From the UHGV virus genome UHGV-0446651: a stretch of DNA of 36,348 nucleotides; one strand, 5' to 3'. Source of the DNA: a virus. The notes beneath the pieces were generated by a model. It had not been told where the DNA came from. It saw only the letters and a program-made list of their open reading frames with translations, and did not search any database. Positions within the stretch are counted from its first letter, which is position 1. Each line of letters begins with the position of its first letter. Both the position numbers and the translations under genes were made by a program. Of the stretch, positions 6,691 through 22,093 are shown one piece after another.

Positions 6691-7797
6691 TCACGCTTCC
6701 TTTTCTGCGTGTTGCATTTCGTGTTGCATATTCTCAAAATGTGAGTTTACTTTATCGATAAATTTCTTGTCTTCTGCATCAATCGTGTTGCGATAGACTT
6801 TTTTTAACACGCGATCAGATTTCCAACCGCCACGCTTCATTATATACTGGTCCGGTATCCCGATAGCGTGCATGATCGATGCGGTATAATGTCTGAGATC
6901 GTGGAATCGGAACTTTGGTATCCCTGCCGCTTGCAGTATACGCCCAAACTTTTTAGAGATATCTTCCGGGTGCATCTTAACAAGTTTTCCTTCTACATCA
7001 TCAAATTTCCGTATAACAAATTCTGGAAAAATAATATATCGGTAACTCTTTTTCGTCTTAGGTGACTTCTCGATCATCCCTTTTCTTCCGCGCACTCTTG
7101 TAATCCGGACTCTAATCGAATTTCCGTTTATATCCTCTTTTTCAAGCCCACACACTTCCCCACGTCTAAGGCTGCCAAAAGCGGCAAGAAGAACAGCTTT
7201 CTCAAGTTCTGTCCCCTTGATGTAGTTTATAAGATTTACAATATCTTGGTCGGAAGGAGTATAATATTCCAGCTCTTCGGATTGCGGGAGTGTAGTTTTG
7301 AACGTCCGGTCCGGAGCGTACATGGACATTACCGGAATGAAGAGACCGTAAGCATTTTTGACAGTTTTTGGAGATAGCCTTGCAGATAGATTATTGACCC
7401 ATATCTGTACATCCTCTTGTGTGATTTTTCGGATGTTAATTTCCTCAATATCCCCAATTTGGTTATTCATGATTGTTTCATAACCTCGCAGCGTTGTTTC
7501 TGATAATACATTTTCTTTCGCTTCTATATACCTTTTAAACGCTTGCTTTACAGTCATATTTTCCGGCCGTTTCTTAGTATCTCTTTCTGAAAGGAATGTA
7601 GCTGCCTGCGCTTCTGCATCCTGCTTTCCTTTTCTTCCTGGCAGATTGCTTGTGAAAGATTCGTAGATTCTCTTTTCCTTCTGTTTCCCTGTCTTCTCGT
7701 CGATAATTGGTTTTCCTTCCCTGTCGTATAGCTTTTCTTTGTGGCTATATACAAGACACCTCCATGTACCGGAGGGCAGCTGCTTTGCTGTTGCCAT
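6691..7797 (-). CDS. int: Tyrosine recombinase / phage integrase.
   Basis: C-terminal catalytic region HDLRHYTASIMHAIGIP...GGW...KVYR (R..H..R..Y type). Start taken at internal ATG 7797 with RBS AAGGAGATGACGAA; the track ORF extends to 7887 without an RBS. attP lies immediately downstream. Confidence 0.85.
   Translation of the reverse strand: MATAKQLPSGTWRCLVYSHKEKLYDREGKPIIDEKTGKQKEKRIYESFTSNLPGRKGKQDAEAQAATFLSERDTKKRPENMTVKQAFKRYIEAKENVLSETTLRGYETIMNNQIGDIEEINIRKITQEDVQIWVNNLSARLSPKTVKNAYGLFIPVMSMYAPDRTFKTTLPQSEELEYYTPSDQDIVNLINYIKGTELEKAVLLAAFGSLRRGEVCGLEKEDINGNSIRVRITRVRGRKGMIEKSPKTKKSYRYIIFPEFVIRKFDDVEGKLVKMHPEDISKKFGRILQAAGIPKFRFHDLRHYTASIMHAIGIPDQYIMKRGGWKSDRVLKKVYRNTIDAEDKKFIDKVNSHFENMQHEMQHAEKEA
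6707..6730. repeat. Integrase arm-type site candidates, right arm: 2 copies (GCGTGTTGCAT, TCGTGTTGCATA). They overlap the last codons of int.
   Basis: Same motif and orientation as the left-arm repeats. The integrase C-terminus ...MQHEMQHAEKEA is encoded across these repeats. Confidence 0.5.
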
Positions 7798-7963
7798 TTC
7801 GTCATCTCCTTTAAATTTAAGTATAAAAATAACAGCCAACGTGCGAACTGATGTTCCACTTGCATGACTGCTCCGAAGATGATACAATATTCTTGGATTT
7901 TAATCGCATATCTTCGGATATGTAGACCGTCTCAGTGTTGGTAGCACTGGGGCGGTTTTTATT

Positions 7964-20418: not shown

Positions 20419-20690
20419 CCAGAGAAACCATGAAGCGCAGAAGGGAGACAGCAGACACTGTGAGAAAGATAGAAGCACACAAAATGGCAACGAGAAAGCC
20501 CTGCGAGACAGCTTTAAAGCAACAGGAGCATAAAGCCTTTGCCTGTGATTTTAAAGGCGGCGAGAGGACGAATAAGGACGTTGCAGAGCACAAGAAGCAC
20601 ACGGTGGAAGACTTTTTGAAGAAGGTCGGAATAGATACGAAAGGGAGTGTGATGAGTGATGACGGAAGCACGCATAAAGCAAATACATAA
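20415..20690 (+). CDS. Hypothetical basic protein (91 aa).
   Basis: ATGA overlap with the previous gene. Confidence 0.45.
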   Translation: MTRETMKRRRETADTVRKIEAHKMATRKPCETALKQQEHKAFACDFKGGERTNKDVAEHKKHTVEDFLKKVGIDTKGSVMSDDGSTHKANT

Positions 20691-21051
20691 AAATAACATC
20701 AGAATGGAACGGCTAGCTGAATTGTATAAAGCACATAAATATGCGGCAATATCATCCGAAATTAATATGAGCGGTATGCCATCGGGAAAAGGCGGGATAG
20801 ATGACAGCATGAGTGATATTGATGACAGTGTGGATATTGAGACAGAATATCGCGCGCTATACTTCGAAAACGAGTTACTCATCAAAGAAGCAAGAAAATA
20901 CATAAACCAGTTGCCAGACAATATTCTACGCATGGTAATGGAATTGAAATATATAAACGGAATGGATGAATATGAAATTTCCGCAGAAGTTGGAGTGCCG
21001 CATAATCAGTGCTGCAGTATGTTAAAAGTACACTGGAATAATGTGTTCTAA
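20659..21051 (+). CDS. ArpU/RinA-like late transcriptional activator (C-terminal sigma-70 region-4-like HTH).
   Basis: C-terminal LPDNILRMVMELKYINGMDEYEISAEVGVPHNQCCSMLK is sigma r4-like. Last gene before the packaging module. RBS AAGGGAG. Confidence 0.55.
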   Translation: MTEARIKQIHKNNIRMERLAELYKAHKYAAISSEINMSGMPSGKGGIDDSMSDIDDSVDIETEYRALYFENELLIKEARKYINQLPDNILRMVMELKYINGMDEYEISAEVGVPHNQCCSMLKVHWNNVF

Positions 21052-21065
21052 ATGTTCTAAAACTA

Positions 21066-21094
21066 TTGACATATAGTGGCTTGACTGGTATACT
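21066..21094 (+). promoter_or_regulatory. Strong sigma-A-type promoter: TTGACA (21066-21071), 17-nt spacer, TATACT (21089-21094). Drives the non-coding tRNA-like/hairpin/tRNA-Asn region.
   Basis: Hexamers and 17-nt spacing read directly, 15 nt after the ArpU-like stop. Confidence 0.6.
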
Positions 21095-21153
21095 GAAAGA
21101 GTGAAAGAAGATAAAAAGGCACTATCACTTATGTGGTGGTGCTTTTTTCTTGC

Positions 21154-21197
21154 GCCGTGGTCAGTTGGGACAAGTAGGTTCGACTCCTGTACACGGC
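21154..21197 (+). ncRNA. Truncated tRNA-like element: acceptor-stem 5' strand, D-loop remnant (TCAGTTGGGA), canonical T-arm (GTAGG-TTCGACT-CCTGT), acceptor 3' strand (ACACGGC). No anticodon arm.
   Basis: gccgtgg-tcagttgggacaa-gtaggttcgactcctgt-acacggc. Six of seven acceptor pairs form. About 35 nt shorter than a tRNA. Confidence 0.45.
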
Positions 21198-21268
21198 TTT
21201 GTGATGTAAGGTTTGCGGCTTACCAGCTGGGGTTGCTGTGGGAGTGCACACCGGCTTTACATCACAAA
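21198..21268 (+). ncRNA. Long hairpin: 12-bp perfect stem TTTGTGATGTAA / TTACATCACAAA enclosing a ~47-nt GC-rich loop that contains the CCAGCTGG palindrome. Immediately 3' of the tRNA-like element.
   Basis: Inverted repeat read directly. Lies within the same promoter-driven transcript as tRNA-Asn. Confidence 0.45.
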
Positions 21269-21390
21269 TGGTACCAAAACGCAGATATCCGCAGATCTGC
21301 AAAACAAACAAAAATAGATTCAGCAATCTATATTTAGTGTCAGTACCCGAGTGCGGATAGGGTAAAGGATGTCAATAAAAGGCATCCTAC

Positions 21391-21463
21391 GGGTGTATAG
21401 CTCAGTTGGTAGAGCGATCGGCTGTTAACCGATGTGTCGCAGGTTCGAATCCTGCTATACCCG
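21391..21463 (+). tRNA. tRNA-Asn (anticodon GTT), phage-encoded, with no encoded CCA.
   Basis: GGGTGTA/TATACCC acceptor stem with one G.U pair. D-arm TAGCTCAGTTGGTAGAGC. Anticodon stem-loop ATCGG-CTGTTAA-CCGAT. T-arm GCAGG-TTCGAAT-CCTGC. Discriminator G. Confidence 0.85.
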
Positions 21464-21466
21464 TTA

Positions 21467-21573
21467 TGGACTACTGCATGGTTTCCTCCTTTTTTCTTAT
21501 AAATTTTGATTGTGTATTTGGTCATTTTGGTTTTTGTTGGCGTTATTAATTCTTTCAGCAGTAGTCCTAAATT
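21467..21573. repeat. 10-bp inverted repeat GGACTACTGC / GCAGTAGTCC flanking a ~87-bp T-rich segment, directly upstream of terS. Candidate packaging-initiation (pac/cos) or processing region.
   Basis: Inverted repeat read directly. Location between tRNA-Asn and terS. Confidence 0.3.
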
Positions 21574-21625
21574 CTTAGCATCCAGAGTTGGGTGCTTTTA
21601 TTATGCTTAAAAGGTGGTGAGTCTG

Positions 21626-22093
21626 ATGGCAAAAGGTAAATATCAAGAGTGGCTAGAGCCGGAAGGCTTGCTGAAGATAGAGGGATGGGCGAGAGATGGT
21701 CTGACGGATGAGCAGATTGCAGATAATATCGGGATTTCCAGAAGCACATTAAATAGCTGGAAAGACAAGTATTCGGACATTTCGGACACCCTAAAAAGAG
21801 GAAAAGAGGTCGTTGATCGTCAAGTCGAGAATGCTTTGCTAAAACGTGCGCTTGGATATGAGTACACGGAAACGACCAGAGAATATATACCGGAACTCGA
21901 TGAAATGAAAACTACGAAAAAGGTCACAAAGCAAGTAGCGCCGGACACTACAGCCCAGATCTTCTGGTTGAAGAACCGGAAACCGGACAAGTGGAGAGAT
22001 AAGCAAGAATACGAAGATAGGACAGCGATTGAGAAGCTGGATGAAATCTTGAAAGGATTGCATGACAATGCAGCTAAGCAAAAAACAGAATGA
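21626..22093 (+). CDS. terS: Terminase small subunit.
   Basis: N-terminal HTH GLTDEQIADNIGISRSTLNSWK. ATG at 21626 with RBS AAGGTGGTGA. Immediately upstream of, and overlapping, terL. Confidence 0.7.
   Translation: MAKGKYQEWLEPEGLLKIEGWARDGLTDEQIADNIGISRSTLNSWKDKYSDISDTLKRGKEVVDRQVENALLKRALGYEYTETTREYIPELDEMKTTKKVTKQVAPDTTAQIFWLKNRKPDKWRDKQEYEDRTAIEKLDEILKGLHDNAAKQKTE

What the first reader, a model, noticed from the sequence alone, without database searches (positions are those of the whole stretch)
21052..21475. Promoter-driven non-coding locus: truncated tRNA-like 'top-half' element plus long hairpin upstream of an intact tRNA-Asn
A consensus TTGACA-17-TATACT promoter sits 15 nt after the late-activator gene. 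The ~340-bp interval it feeds has no credible ORF; the 78-aa track ORF lacks an RBS and runs through the structures. The interval contains (i) a ~44-nt element with acceptor-stem strands, a D-loop remnant TCAGTTGGGA and a canonical T-arm but no anticodon arm; (ii) immediately 3', a perfect 12-bp inverted repeat TTTGTGATGTAA/TTACATCACAAA closing a ~47-nt GC-rich loop; (iii) a GCAGAT...ATCTGC hairpin; and (iv) an intact tRNA-Asn(GTT). This could be a decayed second tRNA. It could also be a functional tRNA-like RNA, for example a decoy or an RNase P/Z processing substrate, co-transcribed with the phage tRNA.
Basis: seen in the sequence. Interest (0 to 1): 0.65.

Follow-up and report, generated by a model that had tools for sequence, protein, structure and literature searches.

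The report
Conserved half-tRNA mimic in phage late leader
A 45-base RNA element that keeps only the "top half" of a tRNA (acceptor stem plus T-arm) sits in the leader of the late genes of a large group of human-gut Ruminococcus gnavus phages; it is kept by selection and most likely serves as a cutting mark for the host's tRNA-processing enzymes, so it is not a dead tRNA gene.

Summary
Window 21154-21198 (+) holds a 6-bp acceptor stem, a 13-nt D-loop remnant with GG, a 5-bp T-stem and a TTCGACT T-loop. It has no D-stem and no anticodon arm. ARAGORN and Rfam do not call it. It is not a decaying pseudogene. Of 148 related viral contigs, 124 carry this minihelix and the other 24 carry an aberrant cloverleaf in the same slot. 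Thirty-five distinct minihelix sequences keep 98.7% of pairs, with compensatory changes at 5 of 11 pairs, an invariant U discriminator and no encoded CCA. The element always lies 2-6 nt after a terminator-like hairpin, is usually followed by a variable long hairpin, then by a conserved four-hairpin block and a canonical tRNA whose identity varies. The promoter is genuine by sequence, but it is probably the RinA-controlled late promoter. The interval is therefore the late-operon leader and not a separate ncRNA gene. Reduced tRNA-like elements also follow ArpU/RinA genes in Lactobacillaceae and Enterococcus phages. Best reading (about 0.5): a tRNA-derived RNase P/RNase Z punctuation mark. A trans-acting tRNA mimic remains possible. 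No RNA data were available. No Rfam family matches, and I class it as a new variant of tRNA-like elements.

The parts
21044..21061 (+). Two direct repeats TGTTCTAAA, overlapping and immediately after the stop of the rinA-like gene. Putative binding site of the late activator.
   Evidence: D9. Each RinA type in relatives is followed by its own repeats: TTGTCC x3, TGTCCGC x2, ATGTCAGT x2. Such repeats were shown to be the Ltr recognition sequences in staphylococcal and enterococcal phages (PMC3753634).
21066..21094 (+). Sigma-A type promoter TTGACA-17-(TG)TATACT. Probably the late promoter.
   Evidence: 11 of 12 positions, TG. Conserved in contigs with the same leader, for example L110 and L148. 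Other leader types carry related extended -10 motifs: TGGTATCAT, TGGTATTAT, TGGTAACAT.
21114..21151 (+). Leader hairpin AAAAAGGCACTATCAC-TTAT-GTGGTGGTGCTTTTT plus U-run. It looks like an intrinsic terminator (T1).
   Evidence: RNAfold gives -22.2 kcal/mol. At least six unrelated hairpin sequences, each followed by a U-run, occupy this position 2-6 nt before the tRNA-like element in relatives. A terminator between the ltr gene and terS was shown functionally in related phage families (PMC3753634, PMC3152322).
21154..21198 (+). Top-half tRNA mimic: acceptor 21154-21159 / 21192-21197; non-Watson-Crick G21160 x A21191; D-loop remnant 21161-21173; T-stem 21174-21178 / 21186-21190; T-loop 21179-21185; discriminator T21198.
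   Evidence: R1 hit of 65 bits. Covariation: 98.7% of cells paired, 5 of 11 pairs with changes on both sides. Not called by ARAGORN or Rfam.
21198..21268 (+). Long variable hairpin closed by a 12-bp perfect stem.
   Evidence: (I3). At least 5 alternative hairpin modules occur at this position in relatives, with compensatory changes inside one type (CACGG/CCGTG versus CGCAG/TTGCG). The hairpin is absent in L008.
21269..21389 (+). Nearly invariant block: palindrome TGGTACCA (21269-21276) and hairpins 21281-21300, 21310-21335, 21344-21364 and 21366-21388.
   Evidence: Compensatory or G.U changes are seen in three of the hairpins: TAGAT/ATCTA to TAGAC/GTCTA, TACCC/GGGTA to TCCCC/GGGGA, and A-U to G.U in AGGATGTC/GGCATCCT. 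The plus strand folds better than the minus strand (-81.7 versus -68.8 kcal/mol).
21391..21463 (+). Canonical tRNA-Asn(GTT) without encoded CCA.
   Evidence: In relatives this slot holds Asn (93), Trp (18), Ile-TAT (17) or Lys (13).
21468..21625 (+). Distal leader: 10-bp stem 21468-21477 / 21558-21567; CCTCC anti-SD-like stretch 21485-21493, complementary to the terS RBS at 21609-21617; terminator-like hairpin 21577-21596, which overlaps a weak promoter-like site at 21575-21604.
   Evidence: (I9, I23).
21626..22093 (+). terS, the first late gene.
   Evidence: PHROG 309 terminase small subunit, E=4.6e-69.

Best explanation
The element is a tRNA-derived minihelix. It keeps the acceptor/T-arm 'top half' and the elbow-forming GG and T-loop, and selection maintains it in the 5' leader of the late (terS) operon of R. 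gnavus-type temperate phages.

The proposed mechanism has these steps.

1. Late transcription starts at the promoter next to the RinA-binding repeats.
2. Transcripts that pass the leader hairpin T1 contain the minihelix.
3. Host RNase P cuts at the 5' end of the minihelix. This leaves the upstream RNA ending in a protective hairpin.
4. RNase Z cuts after the U discriminator. The element has no encoded CCA and a U-rich trailer, like the tRNA-Asn downstream.
5. Together with the canonical tRNA about 190 nt downstream, these cuts divide the leader into a promoter-proximal leader, a roughly 45-nt minihelix, a roughly 190-nt conserved structured RNA, the tRNA, and a terS mRNA whose 5' end is made by tRNA 3' processing.

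Shown here: the structure, its conservation and covariation, its fixed position, and tRNA-precursor-like flanks. Inferred: that it is transcribed, that RNase P and RNase Z cut it, and what the cutting achieves (defined and stable RNA ends, or release of the conserved RNA).
For: - Conservation and covariation: 35 distinct class A/B sequences keep 98.7% of pairs. Five of 11 pairs change on both sides, with visible intermediates (C-G to U.G to U-A; A-U to G.U to G-C). Slid controls pair only 28-52%.
- The slot is always filled: 148 of 148 loci carry class A (108), class B (16) or class C (24), while the upstream leader, the downstream hairpin and the cargo tRNA are all swapped between phages.
- What the three classes share is the acceptor-T minihelix. 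The class C 'anticodon' arm varies (CGC loop versus GGTATCG) and class C fails the Rfam tRNA thresholds (28.3 bits on tRNA-Sec, gathering score 47).
- The flanks look like pre-tRNA flanks: the discriminator is U in 124 of 124, position 74 is U in 114 of 124, position -1 is U in 110 of 124, and no CCA is encoded. RNase Z of Firmicutes cuts CCA-less precursors right after the discriminator (PMC8549757, PMC10424219).
- G.U pairs and strand asymmetry indicate a plus-strand RNA.
- The same theme occurs in other families. A top-half sits about 85 nt after an ArpU gene in Furfurilactobacillus. Elements lacking the anticodon arm, or with a stunted one, follow arpU in phages LBR48, JNU_P2, J-1 and phiFL2A.
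- Independent experimental hint: the published 5'-RACE end of phiFL2A terS mRNA (a G 118 nt upstream of the ATG; PMC3753634) maps to L403:2546. That is 3 nt after the discriminator of a tRNA-Arg, as expected for a tRNA-3'-processing product.
- From established knowledge rather than a test here: acceptor/T minihelices are sufficient substrates for bacterial RNase P, tRNase Z and the CCA-adding enzyme. A tRNA-like domain with a 7-bp acceptor stem is cut by RNase P and receives CCA in M. smegmatis YrlA (PMC4201824).
Against: - No transcript or cleavage data exist for this phage group.
- A strong terminator-like hairpin lies between the promoter and the element. Transcription into the element therefore needs read-through or antitermination, which is not shown.
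- For the window copy the canonical minihelix is not the nearest-neighbour MFE (-8.7 versus -19.7 kcal/mol for an alternative pairing of linker GGAC with GUUC). That alternative is not conserved across classes.
- The acceptor stem has only 6 Watson-Crick pairs plus a purine-purine layer.
- In the window position -1 is C, not U.
- A second processing site so close to a true tRNA is not obviously needed. This leaves room for a function of the excised minihelix itself.
- In S. aureus phages the terS start 23 nt upstream of the ATG was validated as a primary 5' end (PMC3152322). Leader processing is therefore not universal among Ltr phages.
Confidence: 0.5

Rival explanations
1. The element is a trans-acting tRNA mimic. 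After excision and CCA addition, the roughly 48-nt minihelix acts on a host or defence factor that reads the acceptor/T-arm/elbow of tRNAs. It could be a decoy for a tRNA-directed toxin or nucleotidyltransferase, a sponge for a tRNA-binding enzyme, or a chargeable minihelix.
For: - The elbow elements (GG, TTCRA) and U73 are invariant or nearly so.
- The slot is always filled although a canonical tRNA already supplies processing sites nearby.
- Three sequence-unrelated forms share only the features seen by acceptor-end and elbow-binding proteins.
- The neighbouring cargo tRNAs (Asn, Lys, Trp, Ile) are of the kind phages carry against anticodon nucleases. This last point is general knowledge and was not tested here.
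Against: - No target is known.
- The element has no anticodon loop, so it cannot decoy anticodon nucleases.
- G3:U70 is absent.
- The parent isotype is unresolved: the acceptor stem and D-loop are Phe-like, but the discriminator is U and not A.
- Nothing in the window encodes a partner protein, although I did not search for one.
Confidence: 0.2
2. The element is a cis-acting regulatory part of the late leader. The minihelix, alone or with the following hairpins, would modify RNA polymerase or the folding of the leader. This could be put-like antitermination or control of the terminator-like hairpin and RBS just before terS.
For: - The element lies within about 60 nt of the putative late start site.
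- Terminator-like hairpins lie at 21114-21151 and 21577-21596, and an anti-SD stretch pairs with the terS RBS.
- The layout rinA, repeats, strong promoter, terminator resembles lambda Q-PR'-tR'.
- Late activators bind more than 155 bp upstream of the mapped terS 5' end in S. aureus phages, which the authors called mechanistically unexplained (PMC3152322).
Against: - The first terminator precedes the element, so the element cannot help polymerase past it.
- A tRNA shape is not needed for put-like action.
- The intervening hairpin is swapped freely and is even absent in L008, which argues against one integrated fold.
Confidence: 0.12
3. The element is a neutral relic, a truncated tRNA pseudogene hitch-hiking next to a functional phage tRNA.
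For: - The linker TCAGTTGGGA is identical to the D-loop of full-length tRNA-Phe-type genes that have the same acceptor strand. The element therefore clearly derives from a tRNA by loss of the D-stem and anticodon arm.
- ARAGORN and Rfam do not call it.
Against: - Compensatory substitutions keep both helices paired in 35 distinct variants.
- The element is present in all 148 loci despite heavy mosaicism on both sides.
- Independent reduced forms in other phage families also keep the acceptor and T arms.
Confidence: 0.08
4. The element is a DNA-level site, such as a packaging, recombination or protein-binding site, whose symmetry only looks like RNA structure.
For: - It lies just upstream of terS, where cos and pac sites often are.
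- Palindromes (TGGTACCA, GTGATATCAC, GCAGATCTGC) and a CGCAGAT direct repeat occur nearby.
- Mosaic junctions fall exactly at the borders of the element.
Against: - Twenty-six G.U cells in the minihelix would be A.C mismatches on the other strand or in a cruciform.
- The plus strand folds better than the minus strand.
- The T-loop and GG motifs are tRNA-specific.
- attP of a sister phage is elsewhere (PMC10072058).
Confidence: 0.04

Closest known systems
Acceptor/T-arm minihelix ('top half' of tRNA), as used in vitro for RNase P, tRNase Z, CCA-adding enzyme and some aminoacyl-tRNA synthetases (established knowledge, from memory)
   Same: A 12-layer coaxial stack (6 bp plus one non-Watson-Crick layer plus a 5-bp T-stem), a T-loop, a single-stranded discriminator and no anticodon domain.
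   Different: This is a natural, conserved genomic element that also keeps a D-loop remnant with GG. Cleavage, CCA addition and charging are untested.
tRNA-like processing modules: MALAT1 mascRNA and the MHV68 tRNA-miRNA (TMER) genes (from memory); tRNA punctuation of mitochondrial transcripts
   Same: A tRNA-shaped module inside a longer transcript, followed directly by hairpins. Its role is to recruit RNase P and RNase Z and so define RNA ends.
   Different: Those are eukaryotic or organellar, and they are cloverleaf-like. Here the module is bacterial-viral, is reduced to the top half, and sits in an mRNA leader.
Bacterial Y RNA YrlA tRNA-like domain (PMC4201824)
   Same: A tRNA mimic in bacteria and phages. 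The M. smegmatis version, with a 7-bp acceptor stem, is cut by RNase P and receives CCA.
   Different: YrlA has D and T arms plus a Ro60-binding stem and lies next to rsr. There is no Rfam YrlA match here, and this element has no D-stem.
tmRNA tRNA-like domain
   Same: An acceptor stem plus T-arm with a reduced D-loop and no anticodon arm.
   Different: In tmRNA the two halves flank a large mRNA and pseudoknot domain, and G3:U70 is present. Here the element is contiguous and 45 nt long, ARAGORN finds no tmRNA, and the only Rfam tmRNA hit is an 11-nt T-loop fragment (6.6 bits).
Irregular or allo-tRNAs and tRNA-Sec-like tRNAs in bacteria and phages (PMC5389517)
   Same: Non-canonical tRNA-shaped genes in phages. 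The sister class C form (8-bp acceptor, 5-bp D-stem) scores best on the tRNA-Sec model.
   Different: Allo-tRNAs keep an anticodon arm and a long variable arm and can decode. The window element has neither.
Lambda Q / PR' / tR' late control module (from memory), as a comparison for the surrounding layout only
   Same: The regulator gene is followed by its DNA site, a strong promoter and a promoter-proximal terminator ahead of the late genes.
   Different: RinA/ArpU proteins are described as activators (PMC3152322, PMC3753634). Antitermination has not been shown for them, and lambda has no tRNA-like element.

Membership tests
Canonical tRNA (Rfam RF00005 / ARAGORN) | Detected by tRNA gene finders at or above the curated threshold | tested here: not met
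   ARAGORN finds only tRNA-Asn. Rfam gives no tRNA hit at 21154-21198 even at E<=10.
Canonical tRNA (Rfam RF00005 / ARAGORN) | Anticodon arm and D-stem | tested here: not met
   Only 13 nt lie between the acceptor 5' strand and the T-stem.
Canonical tRNA (Rfam RF00005 / ARAGORN) | Acceptor stem plus T-arm with a TTCRANN loop and GG in the D-loop | tested here: met
   The helices covary and the T-loop and GG are nearly invariant.
tmRNA (RF00023) | Split tRNA-like domain flanking a tag reading frame and pseudoknots; G3:U70 | tested here: not met
   ARAGORN finds no tmRNA. The Rfam hit is 6.6 bits over 11 nt only. Position 3:70 is C:G.
YrlA / bacterial Y RNA | Match to the Rfam model; Ro60-binding stem; neighbouring rsr gene | tested here: not met
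   No Rfam hit in the window or in relatives. The neighbours are rinA and terS. A specific search for Ro60 was not run.
tRNA-like RNase P/Z processing module (mascRNA, TMER, punctuation type) | Acceptor/T minihelix geometry with a single-stranded discriminator and no encoded CCA | tested here: met
tRNA-like RNase P/Z processing module (mascRNA, TMER, punctuation type) | Placed at the border between distinct RNA units of one transcript | tested here: met
   It always lies 2-6 nt after a leader or terminator hairpin and directly before a hairpin and conserved RNA block.
tRNA-like RNase P/Z processing module (mascRNA, TMER, punctuation type) | Actual cleavage by RNase P at +1 and by RNase Z after the discriminator | not testable with these tools
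   There is only an indirect parallel. The phiFL2A terS 5'-RACE end lies 3 nt after a tRNA discriminator.
tRNA gene fragment at a phage attachment site | 3' part of a host tRNA next to the integrase, identical to attB | tested here: not met
   The element contains both acceptor strands. It lies about 13 kb from the 398-aa minus-strand ORF 6691-7887, which I take to be the integrase; that ORF was not scanned. attP of sister phage phiRgPS_6 is a 21-bp non-tRNA sequence elsewhere (PMC10072058).
Intrinsic terminator (for the hairpin 21114-21151) | GC-rich hairpin followed by a U-run | tested here: met
   -22.2 kcal/mol with six U. The scan missed it, presumably because the flanking A-run and T-run pair and extend the stem. 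Termination activity itself was not tested.

The most novel reading that the evidence does not exclude
Reduced tRNA mimics (top-half, anticodon-arm-less or D-stem-less forms) may be a general, obligatory component of the late-operon leaders of RinA/ArpU (Ltr)-controlled phages of Firmicutes, and they may do more than mark cut sites. Two readings remain open. In the first, the excised, CCA-tailed minihelix is a trans-acting tRNA mimic that neutralises or exploits a host tRNA-binding factor. In the second, the module belongs to a Q-like system in which Ltr-loaded polymerase reads through promoter-proximal terminators, and tRNA-type processing then creates the 5' ends that have been taken for distant late promoters.
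Probability: 0.18. Interest if true: 0.85.

Novelty: new variant of a known kind. Interest (0 to 1): 0.6.

Why it matters
If correct, it adds a minimal, naturally selected half-tRNA to the known tRNA mimics, and places it in a very abundant group of human-gut phages. The terS protein of this phage occurs in 595 blocks of the assembly collection.

It would show that phages use host tRNA-processing enzymes to cut up their late-gene leader. It also corrects database annotation: the 'tRNA-Ala(CGC)' of several deposited R. gnavus phages is a mimic and not a decoder.

It offers a testable explanation for an old puzzle in Gram-positive phage biology. RinA/ArpU-type activators bind immediately after their own gene, hundreds of bases and a terminator away from the mapped terS mRNA 5' end. 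In phiFL2A that 5' end coincides with the 3' end of a tRNA.

Tried and rejected
- **Known families.** Rfam at gathering and at E<=10, and ARAGORN: nothing for the element, the hairpin or the conserved block.
- **Coding reading.** The 78-aa ORF has no PHROG hit, its frame is not conserved, and no gene is called there in 10 metagenomic places.
- **attP or tRNA-fragment reading.** Rejected.
- **tRNA-Gly origin.** I suspected this because a Mollicutes tRNA-Gly shares GCCGTGG and U73. It is not supported. Full-length tRNAs with this acceptor stem are mostly tRNA-Phe, with A73.
- **Alternative MFE fold of the element.** It is thermodynamically favoured in the window copy, but it is not conserved and shows no covariation.
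- **Homology of the class C cloverleaf to the top-half by internal deletion.** MAFFT aligns the T-arm of the top-half to the 'anticodon' arm of class C. The acceptor stems differ and no simple deletion joins the two forms. I treat them as alternative cassettes.
- **More distant terS relatives (62-79% identity).** Only 8 of the 40 searched carry the element, and most of the rest have no tRNA at all. The exact element is therefore lineage-restricted.
- **blastn of the Furfurilactobacillus leader against the phage collection.** No match.
- **Literature searches for a described phage half-tRNA.** Nothing found.
Full report
**What the window is.** The 36.3-kb window is a complete temperate siphophage genome of the Ruminococcus (Mediterraneibacter) gnavus phage group. 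The interval 21040-21620 is 90-94% identical to phages RG-TP1, phiRg507T2_3, phiRgIBDN1, phiRM10 and others. The finding lies between a 131-aa rinA-like late-regulator ORF and terS. The ORF (20656-21051) matches PHROG 36 at 1.4e-10 and weakly matches sigma-70 region 4. terS (21626-22093) matches PHROG 309 at 4.6e-69.

**Checking the observation.** All listed features are present at the stated coordinates.
- The promoter TTGACA-17-TATACT (21066-21094) matches 11 of 12 positions and has a TG extension.
- The 12-bp perfect inverted repeat is 21198-21209 / 21257-21268 with a 47-nt interior.
- The GCAGAT/ATCTGC hairpin is at 21281-21300.
- tRNA-Asn(GTT) is at 21391-21463 with 73.7 bits.
- The 78-aa ORF is not a gene. 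It has no PHROG match, 1-nt indels break its frame in near-identical relatives, and gene callers left the interval empty in 10 of 10 metagenomic contigs.

The top-half element is 21154-21198. Its parts are GCCGTG/CACGGC (6 bp), a G x A layer, the linker TCAGTTGGGACAA, the T-arm GTAGG-TTCGACT-CCTGT and discriminator U. A descriptor for this architecture found 165 instances in about 2 Mb of fetched loci and 2 in shuffled sequence. Neither ARAGORN nor Rfam (E<=10) reports it.

It lies between the promoter and the element.

**Conservation.** A pattern for the element matched 102 stretches of IMG/VR viral contigs. A pattern for the invariant block downstream found at least 120. In 148 loci with enough flank, the slot holds one of three forms:
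- class A, 43-46 nt, as in the window: 108 loci;
- class B, a shorter top-half of 39-40 nt (GCCATG-AATGGAWAR-GYAGG-TTCRAYY-CCTRC-R-CATGGC): 16 loci;
- class C, a 71-73-nt cloverleaf that GenBank records call tRNA-Ala(CGC): 24 loci.

Class C is not a bona fide tRNA. It lacks G3:U70, has an 8-bp acceptor stem and a 5-bp D-stem, and its 'anticodon' arm varies. Its best Rfam score is 28.3 bits on tRNA-Sec, below the gathering score of 47.

The 35 distinct class A/B sequences keep 98.7% of cells paired. Five of 11 pairs change on both sides, with intermediates visible, whereas slid controls pair only 28-52%. The discriminator is U in 124 of 124 loci, position 74 is U in 114 of 124, position -1 is U in 110 of 124, and CCA is never encoded. 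Twenty-six G.U cells, and a better fold for the plus strand (-81.7 versus -68.8 kcal/mol), indicate a plus-strand RNA. A neutral pseudogene is therefore very unlikely.

**Origin.** Full-length tRNAs in metagenomes that share the acceptor stem GCCGTGG/CACGGC are mostly tRNA-Phe(GAA), 74 of 119. Their D-loop TCAGTTGGGA is identical to the linker of the element. Those tRNAs have A73 and not U73, so the parent isotype is open.

**Context.** The element always begins 2-6 nt after a GC-rich hairpin with a U-run. At least six unrelated hairpin sequences fill that role. In some loci the hairpin simply ends a moron gene inserted upstream, for example HicAB.

Downstream comes a hairpin with at least five alternative sequences. 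One type shows internal compensatory changes, and the hairpin is absent in L008. Next comes a nearly invariant block of about 115 nt with four hairpins. Three of these show compensatory or G.U changes. After the block there is a canonical tRNA that varies between phages: Asn 93, Trp 18, Ile 17, Lys 13.

Each RinA type is followed by its own direct repeats and an extended -10 promoter of the form TGGTAxxxT. In the window the repeats are TGTTCTAAA x2. Such repeats were shown to be necessary and sufficient for Ltr (RinA, LtrC, ArpU) action, and a terminator between the ltr gene and terS was demonstrated (PMC3753634, PMC3152322). In phage Phi13 the repeats lie just upstream of the late promoter (PMC13123087).

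**Beyond this lineage.**
- The same element occurs in Lachnospiraceae and Faecalimonas MAG prophages.
- A related top-half (GCCGTG-ATAGGACGTATG-GGTGG-TTCGATT-CCACC-A-CACGGT) occurs about 85 nt downstream of ArpU-family genes on two contigs of Furfurilactobacillus.
- In seven Lactobacillaceae and Enterococcus ArpU phages I inspected, six have a tRNA or tRNA-like element downstream of arpU. Five of those six have a 450-800-nt non-coding gap after arpU.
- ARAGORN misses several reduced forms. LBR48 has acceptor, D and T arms but no anticodon arm. JNU_P2 has a stunted anticodon hairpin and is followed by a long hairpin. J-1 has two irregular elements. phiFL2A has acceptor, D-like and T-like arms.
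- More distant terS relatives mostly lack any of this.

**Mechanism.** The shared, selected part is exactly what RNase P, RNase Z and the CCA-adding enzyme recognise. The minihelix substrates are established knowledge. M. smegmatis YrlA, which has a 7-bp acceptor stem, is cut by RNase P and receives CCA (PMC4201824). Firmicute RNase Z cuts CCA-less precursors right after the discriminator (PMC8549757, PMC10424219).

I therefore propose a punctuation role. RNase P severs the promoter-proximal leader just past its hairpin, and RNase Z cuts after U73. Together with the downstream tRNA, these cuts release a conserved structured RNA of about 190 nt and create the terS mRNA 5' end.

A published datum fits this proposal. 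The phiFL2A terS 'start site' is a G 118 nt upstream of the ATG, which is L403:2546. That is 3 nt after the discriminator of tRNA-Arg(ACG) at 2471-2543.

**Caveats.**
- No RNA data exist for this phage group.
- The T1 hairpin must be read through.
- For the window copy the canonical fold is not the MFE (-8.7 versus -19.7 kcal/mol). The competing fold is not conserved.
- In S. aureus phages the terS start near the gene was validated as a primary 5' end.

**Rivals.** A trans-acting tRNA mimic is the main rival, because a second processing site next to a true tRNA seems redundant and the slot is never empty. Less likely are a cis-acting leader regulator, a neutral relic and a DNA site.

**Novelty.** tRNA mimics are a known kind: the tmRNA tRNA-like domain, YrlA, mascRNA, TMERs and viral tRNA-like structures. 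A conserved, contiguous top-half in phage late leaders matches no Rfam family, and my searches of the held paper library found nothing like it. I rate it a new variant of a known kind, with interest 0.6.

Noticed in passing
window 21044-21151: The layout is rinA-like gene, two TGTTCTAAA repeats, a near-consensus promoter and then a terminator-like hairpin within about 50 nt of the start. This matches lambda Q-PR'-tR'. It raises the untested possibility that RinA/ArpU-type late regulators confer terminator read-through and do not only activate initiation.
   Followed up: partly
L403 (Enterococcus phage phiFL2A) 2471-2546: The published 5'-RACE 'transcription start' of terS is a G 118 nt upstream of the ATG (PMC3753634). 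It falls 3 nt after the discriminator of a tRNA-Arg(ACG), so it may be an RNase Z processing product and not a promoter start.
   Followed up: partly
L001 1451-1523, L003 1451-1523 and 22 other loci: The 'tRNA-Ala(CGC)' annotated in deposited R. gnavus phage genomes lacks G3:U70, has an 8-bp acceptor stem and a 5-bp D-stem, has a variable 'anticodon' arm, and fails the Rfam tRNA thresholds (28.3 bits on tRNA-Sec). It is probably a tRNA mimic occupying the same slot as the top-half.
   Followed up: yes
window 21269-21389: This block of about 120 nt is nearly invariant across otherwise mosaic phages. It has four hairpins, some with compensatory changes, conserved loops (GAGTGCGGATA, TTTAGTGT), a CA-rich linker and the palindromes TGGTACCA and GCAGATCTGC. 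No Rfam family matches, and it may be a functional RNA in its own right.
   Followed up: partly
window 21468-21625: The distal leader contains a 10-bp stem (21468-21477 / 21558-21567) enclosing a CCTCCTTTT stretch that is complementary to the terS ribosome-binding site (21609-21617). It also has a terminator-like hairpin (21577-21596) that overlaps a weak promoter-like site, TTAGCA-18-TATTAT. This suggests translational or attenuation control of terS.
   Followed up: no
L272 2007-2066 and 2128-2197; L271 1942-1999; L270 1941-2007: Lactobacillus phages J-1, LBR48 and JNU_P2 carry irregular tRNA-like elements just after arpU that ARAGORN misses. They lack an anticodon arm, have a stunted one, or lack the D-stem. 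In JNU_P2 the element is followed by a long hairpin (TTGGCGAGC...GCTCGCCAA), as in the window.
   Followed up: partly
L247 2058-2146: A Furfurilactobacillus prophage has a tRNA-Met(CAT)-like sequence with about 11 extra nucleotides between the D-arm and the anticodon arm. ARAGORN does not call it.
   Followed up: no
L052 and L077 (high-GC IMG/VR contigs): Two top-half-like minihelices occur in an unrelated high-GC phage, for example ACCCTG-CCCGTTGGGGCTTG-CGAGG-TTCGATA-CCTCG-G-CAGGGT. These could be chance matches or an independent case.
   Followed up: no
L397 311-973, L399 1-602: HicA/HicB toxin-antitoxin pairs are inserted just upstream of the leader and tRNA-like region in some prophages of this group.
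   Followed up: no
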